In this document: piece by piece, positions 564 through 55,227 of the stretch
Position numbering within the stretch: position 1 is the stretch's first letter
Layout: every line of letters begins with the position of its first letter
Assembly: GCA_026026165.1 (NCBI GenBank)
Contig: JAPEUD010000044.1
Span: 1-64,000 of the forward strand
Source of the DNA: Sarea resinae
Lineage: Eukaryota
Direction of reading: 5' to 3'
Length of the DNA: 64,000 bases
Notes under the pieces: model-generated
What the model was told of the DNA's origin: nothing
Databases searched by the model: none
The model's input: the letters and a program-made list of their open reading frames with translations, nothing else
Translations under genes and position numbers: made by a program

Positions 564-3500
564 AGGTGCCTGAGGTGCCTGAGGTGCTTTTTTGTTTAGG
601 TTGCTTCTAGTAGTCTGTCTATCTGTCTGTCTGTCTACTGTGAGTAGAATAGAGTAGAGGAGCTTAGAGTAGAGTAGGCGTGCTGGGAGCGATATCCATC
701 CTATCCCATCGATTGTTATCCCTACGATCACCATCATCATCATCGTCGTCGTCGTTACGGAGCGTACTCGTGCCTTCAAGATCGGGCATACACCTACCTG
801 AGGTAGGTAGGTAGAGATGGGTAGATAGCAGGCGGGCAGGCAAACAGGCATTCATTCTACTCTCCTATGAGCAGAAATTCACGCGCGGCCGGTACAGTAT
901 CGCGTTGGATTCATCCATCCGGTTCATGAGCGATGGGATGCGGAAACGCCGTATGTCAGTAGTTAGGTAGCTAGCGGAGGAGAGCTCTCACGATGGATCG
1001 GAGTAGAATACTATGTACTCCGTAGGAGAGGAGAGTACGAAGTAGTTCGTCTCAGACTCTCGATCCCCCCGGGCTGGGGTATGTATGGTTGGGCTAGGTT
1101 GTGCTGTTGTGCTGTTGGGTCTATGGAGTATGTAAATCGAATCTCAAGTCTCTCTTGGTACGCAGTACGGATATCTACCTAAGGTACCTACCTACCTAGC
1201 CAGGGATACAGGACAGCCGGGATATATATTGTTAAAACTGCATGTACAAAGTAGCTCTTCTGATCAAGGTACTCTAGCGACCTAGCTAGGCTAGCTAGCC
1301 TCTCGGGGGTGATTTTCTTTTCTTGCTAGAGAGATTGTTCGAAGGGGTCGATCTTTTGGGAAGAATTTATCGGGTTCAACCCCCCTAGAAGCTGGGATGG
1401 GATGAGTCGCGACCTGACGATCAGGGCAAGGCGGGAGGGATTGTTGGAACGCTGGGTCCGGGGAGGGAGATTATGGGATCATCCGTAATACATAGATTAC
1501 AGAGAACGATGGTGATGGGGATGGGGGGTCCCAGCTGTTTGGGTCCCGCCGTCCTCATCCTCGTCCTTGTTCCTTTTTTCCTCTTACTCGTAGCTACGGA
1601 GTACTTGGCGCGCGCGGCATTATCCTTGTTTGGTGACAGGCAGAGGCAGAGGCAGAGGCAGAGGCGCAGAGGGGGAGATGAGGATCTGAGTGAGCACTAG
1701 CTAGCTCAGGTAGGGACTTGGTTCGTGGGTTCTGTTCCGTGTACGGAGTAGGTAGGCATGTAGCGGCTGGACAGAGACTGAGACTGGGACAACGGCATCA
1801 GCGGCGGCGAAGGCGGTCAGAGAATGGATGGATAGATGGATGGGTTCTTGGAGTGGGAATTGGAGTTGGATGCTGGGGAGCTTGGTAGCTTGGTAGGTGC
1901 TGTCAGCAGCTGGGCTTGGGCTTGATGCTTATGTTCGGCTCGGCAATGATGGGACAAGGTAGGTATGTAGGTAGGTAGGTAGTAAGGTAGGTAGGTAGGT
2001 TAGCTAATGTGGTATGGTGGGAATCGGGAATTTAATTGATATGATGGCTCGACAGGGCATGTTCTATCACTCGGCGTCGTACTGGCGCGGTGAGCGTTGG
2101 AGAGGACACGAGGCGGGCTTGTCTGGGATGGGATGGGCTGCCACGAGGGAGGACAGGGTCGAGGCAGCAAGGCAGGGCAGGGAAGGGAAAAGGGCTGGGA
2201 AAGGTTAGTGGGAGTATGGGGAGAAGAGAGACAGAGAGACTGGCTGGATGGATGTTCTACTACAGTACCGGAGTAGATGTCACACAGGGCGTTGAGGGCG
2301 TTGAAGGCGCGGCGTTGGCTGTGATACCGCACCGCGTGGTCTAGGAAGTCCAGGTCTGAGTGAAGATGGGGACGATGAGGTAGGTGCTCGTGCTAGATGG
2401 ATGATTGGACTTGGAGGTCAGGTAAGGGGTATGTTGGCGTGCTCTTGGACGATGCTGTTTGTTTTTGTTTTCTCCGTCTCGGTGCGAGATGAGGTCATGG
2501 AGATGGAGATGGGGGATAGGGATAGGGATTTCCGGGACGAAGCTACCTACCTACCCTACGGATACTGCATCATTCACATGCATGAGACAATCTCCATCCT
2601 CTCTTGGGGATCGAAGAAGGCAAAGGCCTTTTCGTCTTGCGCCATCAATGGATTCCAGCCATGCCATGCTCTGCTTTGCTCTGCTGGGAGCACGAGTATG
2701 CATTGATGTATGCGTGCCATGCCATGCAATGCCATGCTCTCCTCCCTCGGTACCCACGGTGCGATACCCACGGTACGATACCTCAGCACCGACCACGCCA
2801 CACGAATCGATGTCTCTCTCGCTCTCCCATTCTGTGGTTCGGCTTCATCGCCGTCCACTGTCTTCTCTGCATTCGTGCTCATGCGTGGCACTAAACCGAA
2901 CGGATGCGTTCTGGTGCTACCTCGCTCGCACCGCCCGAAGACAACTGGAAAGTGCGGCAGCTAGGCAGTATCTAGCCTTCCCTCTATCTATCGTACGTTG
3001 GTCGTCGTCCGAGTGCCTCCACTGGGAATAGAGGGGAGCACACCAAGTCGCATAGCTCGCGAAGATCGTTCCAGTGCGCCTCGTCCTTGGCCACCCGGGA
3101 AGATAGTGCACTGGAGGGCCAGTCGCGTACGCTCAGTCGAGGTACTATGTAGGCGTATGGGTGCAGCTTCCTTTCACCGGGATTGACCCCGGGACCGACC
3201 CCACCGTAGCCGTGGACGTGGCGGGCCCTTTATGCTTAATCGAGGCCAATGGCACGTCAAACCATGCCGCTTGGTCGCCAGTGCGCCGACCGAGCCGCGC
3301 CGTGGGGAGCCAGTCCTGCGCATCCCGCAGTAGCGGGTCCTACTACCTTCCTCTACCCAAGGGTCAAAGCAGCAGGGAACAAAGGAAGAGAAGACCCCAC
3401 GGACCCGTTTCCCTCGTCAGCTACAAGGTAAAGAGGCAAGCCCAAGACAAGGCCAGGCAGGACGAGGAGGACTACTACGTAGTAGAGGAATAGTAGGTGT

Positions 3501-51900: not shown

Positions 51901-52502
51901 AAGTTTACTGTATGGGTCATAGGCCCGTCTGTCTTTTGGATCATGAATGGCGCTTTCCCTCTAGTACAACGACCATTTGCATTTGACTTTGAGACGGCTG
52001 GTGACAAGACCCTTATGTTCGGCCATGAGAGGGCAAAACTTGCGATGAAGCATGGATGTTGAGAGACAGTCACGCCAATGGTCTGTCCATGTTCGAATCA
52101 TGGCCTTATCTACGGTCCCGGCGGTCTCCAGCCCGCCACCCCCGCCGCCGCACTAACCTTTTTCAATCACATGTCTTCATCTTCACTCCTTGACTGTTCT
52201 AAGATCGTCGAATGTGGATATAGATGAATCTGTGTGATTAGGTCATTATCCTGCCGAGAGCGGCCCTGCTTGTCTGCTATGGGATCGTGACAAATATTCA
52301 CCACTAAAAGTTCCAGCACAGCCTATATGTTCTTCACCTACCGGTCAATCCTGAAGCGCTTCTTCCTTCTCACGCTATTAGCTTTTCATCCTTCTCTTTG
52401 TTGATGCTCCCAACTGATAGAGTCCTCAATTTTCACCCTCCCGGGTCATCTTATAAAATCGTTCTGTCTTCTCTTACTATCAATTAGCGTTTTAAAGTCG
52501 AA

Positions 52503-54060
52503 ATGACAAATAATTCCGTAGTAAGTGTGAATGCCCATCACTTCAAGAGTACCCGCTAATCCCTCGCTTTGAAGGCTGCGAACGTTCTAGGGGTATGACT
52601 ATCCAATATGCCCAGAACTTGATAATAGCTGACAGCAGTTGCTATAGACTATTGGGACAAGTAAGTCTACGCACAACTCTAATTACTAGTGACATCAATT
52701 GCTGACCTAGGCTAGTGTACGCTCTTCTAATAGCCTTATTATTGCAAATTTGCTAACCTCTGACTGTCATGCAGCTGTTGGTGTATCCAGGTATGAGTAC
52801 TTTGGTTTTCATATGGGATGATATTAGCTAACCGCGGCGGTAGCTTTTTCCTCAGTACGTTGGATCAAACGTTAGACGTCCGATGTTTGCTCATCTTATA
52901 TAGAATATGGTCCAACTACCGTAGGAAGAACACCGAGGGGCTGCCTGGCGCCATGTTATTTCTCTGGTCTATCTGTATGCCACGGCAATCCGTTGGTTGA
53001 TGCGGCAAATTTCGTACTAATCAGATATAAAAGGCGCTGTCCCATTTGGAGTCTATGCGGTCGTCCAGGTATGGAATATGCTTTTTTGGGGAAGCGCCAT
53101 TTCTAACCAGTGACTCAGAAATTCAATATTCCGATGCAGGTGCAGCCACAAGTGTTTTGTGCTTTATCGCTCGTCAGCTGGGCGCAGACCCTAGTATACC
53201 ATAGGTATTATGCTGTGTTTCACAGTCATTCATAAGCCTTCTAATTGGACTCTAGTCATAAAACCCCTATGGTCGCAACGCTCATAGCTGTCGTCACTGG
53301 CCTTGTCTTTGCAGGTGTCGAGACACTGTTGATCTTAACGCTTCGGGTGAGCAGCTCTCTCTAACCCTCTTTGCTTGTGGCTGATACCTTTCAAGGGCCC
53401 ATACAACCGTGGAACAACTTGGCCTATCACCTTCATTGGCGTCATTGCGGCGGTACTCCTGGCCGCGGGGTTGATCCCTCCGTACTTTGAGATTTGGAAG
53501 CGCAAGGGCAGAGTAGTCGGGATCAGTACGTTTGTTTTCTTTTTCCAGAGGTACAGTCAGATACTAACATGCCCCATCAGACCTTCTCTTTCTAACAGTA
53601 GACTTTTCGGGTGCATTCTTTTCTCTCATAGCATTAGGTAAAGCAGCCACGACCACCTTCTAACATCAATCTGCTGAACGTCTCGCAGCTGTCCAAAATC
53701 ATTTCGATGTCCTCGGAGGCATCCTTTACATCATCTGGTAAGGACTTTATCATCTCCTGCCATAACATTTTCCTGATCAGAACATGCAGCCTTTTTCTAG
53801 AGCTCGGGATCTTCATCTCTCACTGGGTGTGGCTGCTTAGGACCCGCAAGGTTCGAAAGGAAGCAAAATGTGCCGGCCTGAGTTATGACGAGTATGTCGA
53901 GAAAGAGTCGGCAGATTGCCCATCCGGCAGCGGTCTCGCGGACAGCAAGAAAGCCACGCCATCGTCCTCTCAAAAATCTTCCCCCTCATCCTCCGATCTC
54001 GAACTCGGCAACTCCGGAGTTCAAAAGGCGGATAAGGACACGGAAAAGGAGACTGGCTAA
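52503..54060 (+). CDS. PQ-loop repeat membrane protein, 288 aa, 14 exons: 52503-52520, 52575-52592, 52648-52660, 52716, 52775-52790, 52844-52854, 52904-52974, 53034-53068, 53119-53204, 53256-53346, 53396-53525, 53581-53637, 53689-53737, 53790-54060
   Basis: Exons sum to 867 nt and translate MTNNSVAANVLGTIGTICWCIQLFPQIWSNYRRKNTEGLPG..IPMQVQPQ..LIPPYFEIWKRKGRVVGIN..VDFSGAFFSL; all introns GT..AG with branch-like motifs. Confidence 0.88.
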
Positions 54061-55227
54061 AGGTCTAATCCTTACCCAGTCGCAGGGGATGCAGTCAGAC
54101 TTTTTTCTCTGCCATGTTTCTCGACCCCGGTGTTTGATCGTCGACTTTATACCCCTCGGACCTCGACTTCGACCTCGCCCTTGACCAGTCATTTGTACAC
54201 GATTTACGAAAAGCATCGGATGAATTCCTCGTATCTACGATTCCCGGACGGTATTTCGTGTTTCTGTAGCCTACCTAGATATCCTGCACCCATTCTTGCT
54301 CTTGTTCTCCTATTCCCCCATCGAAGAGTCGGCATTGTTTTGGATGGGCATTTTACGGTTCGGTCATTTTCTTGATCGTGGGCACTATCAAGTAATACCT
54401 GCTACTGACGACTTATGAGAGAATGCATCACTACATCGCTGTTGCCTTTCTCTTACCCTGACTCACTAGCTCCTTTCTTTTTGATCAAATTGGCTGACAG
54501 CTACCTCCTCCTGTTGTGCCTGCCTACTAAATCTCAATCTGCTCTTCCGGCATCTTCCCGGAAAGTGAACATGATATATGGCTGTTCGGCCTCTGTGCTT
54601 CGCCATTTCATTGGCGGCGGGGAGGGACGTCCGCCGCTGTAAGGCATGGGCTAGCGATTTCTACGTGAAGGACACACAACACAAAAAGCCAATCTTTCAT
54701 ATCACCAATGTCTCACCCAAAAAGAAAAAAAAGACACAAGGCCGCTGCCACTAGAGTGAGGTGATATCTTGTTGAAGCGAGGAAGAAATAAGGATCTCGA
54801 AAATAATACAGGACATATCGAAAATAGGACAAGGGAACACACCTCTTGGGCTGTTGTATATAAAGAAACCTTTCCTAACTAACGCCAGAGGACACAAGTC
54901 ATGTCCAATCCACCACGCGCGCACAGATCGCGCTCAAATAAATTCCACGATATAATATGCCCGATATTGCAGAGTGAGACACGAGAGAAGAAAAATTTCC
55001 TCGAGAAAATGCGCGCCTCGCTTGAAACGCTGAGGTGGGGACGGGCAGCTGAAGGAAAAGTCCCTATATTCGAAAACCAAATGTGAAGACGAAAAGATGA
55101 TGGCATCGCAGGCCATATCCTCACCACGGGCGATGACCAACCTCCGCAGGTGATGGCCACGGACTGACAAAGAAAAGGCATCAAGACGTGAAGCATAGTA
55201 CAGTAAGATGTCGGAGCAAGCTGGAGA

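What the first reader, a model, noticed from the sequence alone, without database searches (positions are those of the whole stretch)
52648..52790. Single-nucleotide exon (T52716) required in the PQ-loop gene
Seen: exon 3 ends ..ACA A|GTAAGT. A 55-nt intron (52661-52715) has branch GCTGAC and acceptor CTAG, then one base T, then a second complete 58-nt intron GTACGC..GCTAAC..GCAG (52717-52774). Only A+T+C = ATC (Ile) restores TIGTICWCIQLFPQIW, the PQ-loop signature. Treating the two as one intron, or using the upstream AG (6-nt exon), frameshifts the protein. It does not fit the [D1,2] stwintron pattern because the base before the first GT is A. Established: one-nt exons are very rare and are missed by gene predictors and read aligners. 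Inference: the two introns are removed sequentially, and skipping could act as an off switch.
Basis: partly seen in the sequence, partly recalled or inferred. Interest (0 to 1): 0.85.

Follow-up and report, generated by a model that had tools for sequence, protein, structure and literature searches.

The report
One-nucleotide exon in a PQ-loop gene
A single T that lies between two complete short introns must be spliced into the mRNA of a fungal membrane-transporter gene to keep it in frame, and distantly related fungi keep the same odd arrangement, which gene annotations routinely get wrong.

Summary
T52716 lies between a 55-nt intron (52661-52715) and a 58-nt intron (52717-52774). Both have normal donor, branch and acceptor signals. 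It sits in a 14-exon, 288-aa PQ-loop gene (52503-54060, + strand).

A spliced aligner of my own that allows any exon size recovers the 1-nt exon. Thirteen of 15 fetched homologues have exactly one residue (V or I) at this spot.

The same AG|T|GT architecture, with the same run of micro-exons (18, 13, 1, 16, 11 nt), occurs in 10 metagenome loci, 8 of them distinct. One of them codes an exon 100% identical to Alternaria alternata proteins. Within the two introns only the splice signals are invariant.

In Plenodomus lingam, ORFs on Logan contigs have one codon at the site, whereas the genome annotation reads 15 nt of intron.

The deposited protein model for this window, and dozens for Dothideomycetes, go wrong at this codon.

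No RNA run exists for the window's organism, so splicing order and any switch role are untested.

One-nt exons are already described in Arabidopsis, Fusarium and Coprinopsis. This is a new, unusually widely conserved member of a known kind.

The parts
52503..54060 (+). PQ-loop membrane protein gene: 14 exons, 13 introns of 49-59 nt, 288 codons plus stop
   Evidence: Manual model. My spliced aligner reproduces it against P0002 and P0009. The deposited model P0001 matches PF04193.
52503..52520 (+). exon 1 (18 nt, start codon)
52575..52592 (+). exon 2 (18 nt)
   Evidence: An 18-nt exon stands at the same place in 9 related loci.
52648..52660 (+). exon 3 (13 nt); its last base A is codon position 1 of the split Ile codon
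   Evidence: The 13-nt exon is conserved in 10 loci.
52661..52715 (+). intron A (55 nt): donor GTAAGT, branch GCTGAC (A at 52705), acceptor TAG
   Evidence: Donor, branch and AG are invariant columns in alignment A3.
52716..52716 (+). single-nucleotide exon T, codon position 2
   Evidence: T is invariant in all 9 distinct sequences.
52717..52774 (+). intron B (58 nt): donor GTACGC, branch GCTAAC (A at 52756; second candidate CTGAC, A at 52763), acceptor CAG
52775..52790 (+). exon 5 (16 nt); its first base C is codon position 3
   Evidence: The same 16-nt exon occurs in 8 loci.
52844..52854 (+). exon 6 (11 nt, carries most of the PQ motif); left out of the deposited annotation
   Evidence: The same 11-nt exon occurs in 8 loci.
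52904..52974 (+). exon 7 (71 nt)
53034..53068 (+). exon 8 (35 nt)
53119..53204 (+). exon 9 (86 nt)
53256..53346 (+). exon 10 (91 nt)
53396..53525 (+). exon 11 (130 nt, second PQ-type loop)
   Evidence: 100% identical to P0001.
53581..53637 (+). exon 12 (57 nt)
53689..53737 (+). exon 13 (49 nt)
53790..54060 (+). exon 14 (271 nt including the stop codon)
52665..52670 (+). rival donor GTCTAC (+4): in frame with the acceptor of intron B, gives two residues instead of one

Best explanation
T52716 is a real, constitutive one-nucleotide exon of a PQ-loop membrane-transporter gene. It is the middle base of an Ile codon in the first transmembrane helix, a few residues before the PQ motif. The codon is split over three exons (A / T / C).

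Two ordinary short U2-type introns abut the T, and each has its own donor, branch point and acceptor. Fungal introns of about 50 nt are recognised by intron definition. The donor site of intron B also overlaps the acceptor of intron A. The two introns must therefore be removed one after the other, in an order not yet known (inferred, not shown).

If the donor of A is paired with the acceptor of B, the T is lost, the frame shifts and a stop follows after 85 codons.

The arrangement is part of a run of six micro-exons (18, 18, 13, 1, 16, 11 nt). It is inherited, because the same intron positions occur in core Pleosporales, a different class of fungi.
For: Shown by the sequence:
- The coordinates and splice signals are as described.
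- Only the model with the T gives a full 288-aa frame with one residue at the site.

Homology:
- 13 of 15 fetched homologues have exactly one residue (V or I) between the motifs GTIGT and xWC. The two exceptions are the window's own deposited model P0001 and P0004.
- 58 of 79 related loci encode this stretch uninterrupted, with one codon there.
- A spliced aligner that allows any exon size picks the 1-nt exon in the window against two targets and in 8 of 8 distinct related loci. With the T masked, the score falls by 5-11 and the +4 donor is used instead.

Conservation:
- 10 loci (8 distinct) each have a unique AG|T|GT parse. Intron A is 49-57 nt with its branch A 11 nt from the 3' end. Intron B is 55-64 nt.
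- In alignment A3 the invariant intron columns are the two donors, the two branch motifs, the AG-T-GTA-G core and the final AG.
- Exon lengths in the window are 18, 13, 1, 16, 11, 71, 35, 86, 91, 130, 57, 49. In L064 they are 18, 13, 1, 16, 11, 71, 35, 86, 221, 57, 49.
- Locus L008 codes an exon 100% identical to Alternaria alternata proteins.

Transcript-like evidence:
- P0163 and P0166 are ORFs on Logan contigs. They are 99-100% identical to the Plenodomus lingam genome model P0161 over the whole length. The exception is five extra residues in P0161 right after the V, which match a read into intron B.
- P0041, P0044, P0069 and P0177 are full-length ORFs on contigs of 1322-1828 nt, and they also have one V there.
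- L001, an intron-free relative with fragmentary upstream ORFs (so it looks genomic), has one codon (ATT) at the site.

DNA check: one contig of the probable source DNA shows 0 differences over 52450-53050.
Against: - No RNA run is listed for the window's organism, so no read shows the junction in this species.
- The library type of the Logan and JGI contigs behind P0163, P0166, P0041, P0044 and P0069 is not known to me. L001 shows that intron-free genomic copies exist in this group.
- I hold no genomic DNA of Plenodomus lingam, so its intron A is inferred from relatives.
- The +4 donor alternative is in frame in the window and in 7 of the 8 distinct loci. The score gaps come from my own arbitrary scoring scheme.
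- The bare pattern is expected 0.4 times per window by chance under loose criteria.
- One genome-derived model, P0174 (Didymella sp.), already has the correct residue, so that species may lack the introns.
Confidence: 0.88

Rival explanations
1. One 110-nt intron runs from the weak donor GTCTAC at 52665 to the acceptor at 52774. Exon 3 is then 17 nt and the protein has two residues (S, N) where homologues have one.
For: It is in frame with no stop. It is the best path when the T is masked. The same +4 option exists in most related loci, because GTRAGT donors carry GT at +5.
Against: - None of the 13 intact homologues, and none of the 58 uninterrupted loci, has an extra residue there.
- The +4 hexamers share no consensus across loci, and in L024/L025 the +4 site is GC.
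- The residues it would give vary (SN, GN, GY, GS, GD, GH).
- The internal branch motif and the AG-T-GTA-G core would have no reason to be invariant.
- A 110-nt intron would be twice the length of the gene's other 11 introns.
- The transcript-like ORFs show one V.
Confidence: 0.04
2. The T is skipped: one 114-nt intron runs from 52661 to 52774, and the frame is restored elsewhere, as in the deposited annotation P0001, which also drops the 11-nt exon.
For: P0001 is built this way. Fourteen deposited models carry the same frameshifted signature.
Against: - The product loses the PQ motif. P0001 matches the Pfam PQ-loop profile only from profile position 21, against position 2 in P0002, P0009 and P0044.
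- The five residues it reads instead match no homologue.
- Skipping the T alone gives a stop after 85 aa.
Confidence: 0.03
3. A single intron with boundaries shifted by one base (non-canonical TA-AG or GT-CA) borrows a G, giving Ser in the window and Gly in the Pleosporales genes.
For: Seven deposited models have G or R, residues with G in codon position 2, as the single residue (P0033, P0077, P0089, P0096, P0160, P0162, P0228).
Against: It needs non-canonical splice sites. The transcript-like ORFs have V, not G. G or R at this helix position is found only in genome-derived models. That these models borrow an intron base is my inference.
Confidence: 0.02
4. The gene is a pseudogene, or the T region is an assembly error.
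For: The window appears to come from a metagenome-assembled genome (source name of P0001).
Against: A second assembly of the probable source DNA is identical at depth 350, though it may come from the sample that the window was assembled from. All 13 introns are canonical and the frame is open for 288 codons. The same architecture occurs in 8 other distinct sequences.
Confidence: 0.01

Closest known systems
Single-nucleotide exon of Arabidopsis APC11 (Guo and Liu 2015, PMC4674806; passages read)
   Same: One base flanked by AG and GT, required for the frame, missed by the annotation. The authors also argue for intron definition with one-after-the-other removal.
   Different: That exon is an A inside a 422-nt former 'intron' and was proven by reporter mutagenesis. 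Here the base is T, both introns are about 55 nt, and the evidence is comparative with no experiment. Both rice APC11 genes lack the intron, whereas this case is shared by two fungal classes.
One-nucleotide exon of Fusarium CYP621A P450 genes (Nelson and Syed 2026, PMC12940212; parts 1 and 2 of 3 of the text read, through the start of the references; supplements not seen)
   Same: A fungal nuclear gene in which the middle base of a codon in a conserved motif is a 1-nt exon. It was inferred from a phase mismatch, conserved among orthologues, mis-annotated in nearly all records, and supported by an intron-free relative.
   Different: That case is AG|G|GT within one genus and is backed by 18 SRA reads. 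The authors suggest G is favoured because it fits both splice-site consensus sequences; here the base is T. This case spans Sareomycetes and Dothideomycetes and sits in a run of six micro-exons. Their claim of the first fungal case is not matched by the Coprinopsis annotation below.
Thirteen 1-nt exons in the long-read annotation of Coprinopsis cinerea (PMC12230235; passages read)
   Same: Shows that 1-nt exons occur repeatedly in fungal genomes and break gene models if they are missed.
   Different: A basidiomycete. The passages I read name neither the genes nor their conservation. Supplements were not seen.
[D1,2] stwintrons (spliceosomal twin introns; abstracts seen in the listing)
   Same: Two introns in direct contact that must be removed consecutively.
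   Different: In a stwintron the inner intron splits the donor of the outer one and no exon base is left between them. Here both introns are complete on their own and one base stays in the mRNA.
Recursive splicing at AG|GT ratchet points (recalled; mentioned)
   Same: An acceptor directly followed by a donor, with stepwise removal.
   Different: A ratchet point leaves zero bases; here exactly one coding base is kept.

Membership tests
Constitutive single-nucleotide exon | One base flanked upstream by a complete intron ending in AG and downstream by a complete intron starting with GT, each with its own branch site | tested here: met
   Both introns fall within the length and signal range of the gene's other 11 introns.
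Constitutive single-nucleotide exon | The base is needed to keep the reading frame and a conserved residue | tested here: met
   Homologues have one V or I there.
Constitutive single-nucleotide exon | The base is present in the mature mRNA | not testable with these tools
   No RNA run is listed for this organism. Indirect support comes from ORFs on Logan and JGI contigs of Pleosporales.
Constitutive single-nucleotide exon | The arrangement is kept in orthologues | tested here: met
   10 loci, 8 of them distinct, with invariant AG-T-GTA-G.
[D1,2] stwintron | G directly before the inner intron, so that its excision creates a new GT donor that is then used | tested here: not met
   The window has A before GTAAGT. 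The orthologues have G, but using the new donor would remove two coding bases and break the frame (sequences).
Recursive-splicing ratchet point | AG directly followed by GT with no base between them | tested here: not met
   One T lies between AG and GT in all 9 distinct sequences.
PQ-loop repeat proteins (Pfam PF04193) | Match to the PQ-loop profile above the curated cut-off | tested here: met
   P0001, the deposited model of this gene, scores 51.3 bits against a cut-off of 22, starting at profile position 21. Homologues P0002, P0009 and P0044 score 71-78 bits over profile positions 2-60. The corrected spliced protein itself was not sent to the tool.

The most novel reading that the evidence does not exclude
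This may be the most widely conserved one-nucleotide exon so far described. On this reading it was inherited, with its run of six micro-exons, from the common ancestor of Sareomycetes and Dothideomycetes (near the base of leotiomyceta). It has since been kept or lost only as a pair of introns: 10 loci have both, 61 have neither and none has just one. That would make it a natural system for studying obligatory ordered (recursive-like) splicing by intron definition. Skipping of the T would give a built-in frameshift and early-stop isoform that the cell could use to turn the transporter down.
Probability: 0.4. Interest if true: 0.75.

Novelty: new member of a known kind. Interest (0 to 1): 0.62.

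Why it matters
- It adds a further nuclear one-nucleotide exon to the few in print, in a different gene family. The base is T, which fits neither splice-site consensus.
- It is shared by two fungal classes, so a 1-nt exon can be stable over long evolutionary time and is not just a short-lived accident.
- The protein models for this gene are wrong at this codon in the window's own record and in many published genomes of Alternaria, Pyrenophora, Parastagonospora, Plenodomus, Bipolaris, Exserohilum, Ascochyta, Diplodia and others. Most of these models lose or garble the first PQ motif, and many carry no precomputed Pfam PQ-loop hit.
- Gene predictors and protein-to-genome aligners that cannot split a codon over three exons will keep making this error.
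- The run of six exons of 1-18 nt within 77 coding bases is a useful test case for such software and for splicing-order studies.

Tried and rejected
- Whole genome: none is held for this window.
- RNA evidence: no RNA holder is listed for 52400-54150. The only holder is a DNA run that may be the source. Laying it gave one identical contig and no joints. Runs X2 and X3 laid nothing.
- Genomic and spliced pairs of one species among the 79 loci: blastn and tblastn with 16 ORFs, mostly on short contigs, found none. The best identity was 90% over only 108 residues.
- A third protein search, aimed at transcript-derived Alternaria proteins, gave no separate cluster. Such proteins, if they exist, would lie inside the 97-member cluster of P0029, of which only 15 members were listed.
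- Earlier findings of this scan: nothing by place, words or sequence.
- Literature on this gene: no paper holds 'PQ-loop' together with 'microexon' or 'micro-exon', and the 15 listed papers hold no PQ-loop term. Searches for other wordings of a 1-nt exon gave only the cases cited.
- 6-nt exon reading (acceptor at 52710): rejected. It leaves 8 nt and an in-frame TAG.
- [D1,2] stwintron reading: rejected (see membership test).
- Pattern count against random sequence: my intron-like criteria do not separate real from random sequence (253 segments against 266), so this test says little.
- The careful tree did not finish. Only the quick tree is reported, and its deep branches are weak.
- In one search (tallied) L014 appeared to have only one of the two introns. 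This is an artefact of forcing a target onto a contig that starts 42 nt before exon 3. With a trimmed target it has both.

Full report
**What is in the window**

The stretch 52503-54060 (+ strand) is a fungal gene with short introns. Reading it by hand gives 14 exons and 13 GT-AG introns of 49-59 nt, and a 288-codon frame.
- Exon 3 (52648-52660) ends in A.
- Intron A (52661-52715, 55 nt) has donor GTAAGT, branch GCTGAC and acceptor TAG.
- T follows at 52716.
- Intron B (52717-52774, 58 nt) has donor GTACGC, branch GCTAAC and acceptor CAG.
- Exon 5 starts with C.

A, T and C make an Ile codon. The first six exons are 18, 18, 13, 1, 16 and 11 nt long, so six introns fall within 77 coding bases. 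Introns A and B look like the other eleven. A second assembly of the probable source DNA covers 52450-53050 in one contig at depth 350 with no difference. It may come from the sample that the window was assembled from, so it is not independent.

**The organism and the deposited model**

Exon 11 is 100% identical to P0001, which its source names as a protein of a metagenome-assembled Sarea resinae. That species belongs to the class Sareomycetes. P0001 has 284 residues. It treats introns A and B as one, skips the 11-nt exon, reads five wrong residues and loses the PQ motif. Pfam matches it only from profile position 21, whereas homologues match from position 2.

**Is one base really needed?**
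- Of 15 homologues fetched, 13 have exactly one residue (V or I) between the motifs GTIGT and xWC. The two exceptions are P0001 and P0004 (Candelaria), which departs from the family at the same codon.
- I wrote a protein-guided spliced aligner that lets a codon be split over any number of exons. Against P0002 and P0009 it returns my manual model, including the 1-nt exon.
- With the T masked, the best path uses the GT at 52665. This gives two residues (S, N) and scores 8 lower.
- Skipping the T gives a stop after 85 codons. Retaining either intron gives an early stop.
- The bare pattern is not rare. By loose criteria 0.4 such pairs are expected per window in random sequence. Position and conservation carry the argument.

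**Related loci**

A scan of metagenome contigs with an 11-protein alignment returned 79 loci. One of the two search patterns required the stretch to be uninterrupted, so the sample is biased against split forms.
- Ten loci have the same architecture: L008, L014, L024, L025, L036, L040, L045, L064, L065 and L070. L024/L025 and L064/L065 are near-duplicates, so eight are distinct.
- In each, a 13-nt exon ends in G. Intron A is 49-57 nt with its branch A 11 nt from the end. A single T follows, then intron B of 55-64 nt. The next exon begins with C or T, which gives Val.
- In the alignment of the nine distinct sequences, the invariant intron columns are GT and G(+5) of donor A, the CTxAC of both branches, the core AG-T-GTA-G and the final AG. 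The rest of both introns has diverged.
- The aligner finds the 1-nt exon in all eight, with a score loss of 5-11 when the T is masked.
- Exon lengths in L064 (30, 18, 13, 1, 16, 11, 71, 35, 86, 221, 57, 49) match the window's (18, 18, 13, 1, 16, 11, 71, 35, 86, 91+130, 57, 49). Twelve of the window's 13 intron positions are therefore shared.
- Over all 79 loci, 10 have both introns, 61 have neither, none has only one, and 8 lack the N-terminus.
- Other positions of the window's introns are kept in 21-33 loci of other lineages. These are the positions after residue 43 (phase 1), residue 55 (phase 0) and residue 83 (phase 2), counted from the conserved AAN start. This fits an intron-rich ancestor with differential loss.

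**Who these relatives are**

An exon of L008 is 100% identical to Alternaria alternata proteins. The next hits are Pleosporales (Dothideomycetes): Pyrenophora, Parastagonospora, Plenodomus, Bipolaris, Exserohilum, Ascochyta and others. In a quick tree the 1-nt-exon loci fall in a clade with 100% support together with such proteins. The window's protein sits far away, near Xylona and Cryomyces, and is 52-57% identical to them. The deep branches of that tree are weak and the careful search did not finish.

**Transcript-level hints**

I could not obtain RNA reads for any of these species. The protein collection does hold ORFs called on Logan and JGI contigs.
- P0163 (17 contigs) and P0166 (4 contigs) are 99-100% identical to the Plenodomus lingam JN3 genome model P0161 along the whole protein, including the variable tail. 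The one difference is five extra residues in P0161 directly after the V.
- Those five residues are what one reads if translation continues from the T into GTATGTAAAC…, the start of intron B as seen in Alternaria locus L008.
- P0041, P0044, P0069 and P0177 are 316-319 aa ORFs on contigs of 1322-1828 nt. They also read one V.
- That these contigs are spliced RNA is my inference. L001 shows that an intron-free genomic copy exists in this group. It carries one codon (ATT) at the site, as expected if both introns were lost precisely around an exonic T.

**Annotation errors**

Among 115 fetched proteins that carry the motif, 43 deviate right after it.
- Two of these are mismatches of my pattern (P0083, P0113).
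- Two have one residue but F in place of C (P0225, P0227).
- Fourteen show the skipped-T frameshift signature, as P0001 does.
- Eight read into intron B after the T: P0047, P0063, P0090, P0097, P0147, P0150, P0161 and P0192. The predictor therefore chose the acceptor just before the T.
- Seven have G or R as the single residue, as if a G of the intron border had been borrowed.
- The rest read into intron A or skip the whole micro-exon run.
- The affected species include Botryosphaeriales (Diplodia, Lasiodiplodia). This hints at a wider spread, but I hold no DNA for them.

**Mechanism**

Shown:
- There are two complete introns, one coding base between them, and conserved signals.

Inferred:
- Recognition is by intron definition.
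- The introns are removed one after the other, because the donor site of B (positions -3 to +6) overlaps the acceptor of A. Guo and Liu reasoned the same way for Arabidopsis.
- Either order leaves a usable substrate, and I cannot tell which is used.
- The T is held by the protein, since only T in codon position 2 gives V, I, L, M or F. It is not held by splice-site preference, because T fits neither consensus.

Not shown:
- Any regulated skipping.

**What is known, and novelty**

One-nucleotide exons are in print for three cases:
- Arabidopsis APC11, proven by mutagenesis (PMC4674806; passages read).
- Fusarium CYP621A, from comparative work plus 18 reads (PMC12940212; parts 1 and 2 of 3 of the text read).
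- Thirteen genes of Coprinopsis cinerea (PMC12230235; passages read).

No paper in the library links a PQ-loop gene with micro-exons. This is therefore a new member of a known kind. What is new is the gene family, the base (T), the setting in a run of six micro-exons, and conservation across two classes.

**Verdict**

Splicing order and the switch role remain open. Interest is moderate to high for people who work on splicing and fungal genome annotation.

Noticed in passing
window 52503-52974: Six consecutive micro-exons (18, 18, 13, 1, 16, 11 nt) lie within the first 77 coding bases, one intron per 13 nt. The same series is kept in 8 of the related loci.
   Followed up: yes
L003, L004, L077 (about 3105-3107 in each): Three contigs of one lichen-type relative carry an in-frame TAA where relatives have a Gln codon, inside the otherwise well conserved first exon. 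This could be a pseudogene, a strain variant or stop read-through.
   Followed up: partly
L001 2989-3825: An orthologue with no introns at all (278-aa ORF) in a relative of the 1-nt-exon clade. A short conserved element upstream suggests the same locus, so all introns seem to have been lost precisely.
   Followed up: partly
proteins P0048, P0199-P0211 (JGI contigs up to 109 kb): In some Pleosporales genomes the ORF runs uninterrupted from the Met just before the WSIC motif to the stop. All 3' introns are therefore gone, while the ORF cannot extend upstream. This is consistent with 3'-biased intron loss that spares the 5' micro-exon run.
   Followed up: no
proteins P0236, P0244, P0245, P0246, P0215: Pleosporales carry a second, well-annotated paralogue of this PQ-loop family, which forms a separate clade with 99% support. 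Its gene structure was not examined.
   Followed up: no
P0137, P0142: Two deposited models fuse a PQ-loop protein to a response-regulator receiver protein (1082 and 1169 aa). These are probably merged neighbouring genes.
   Followed up: no
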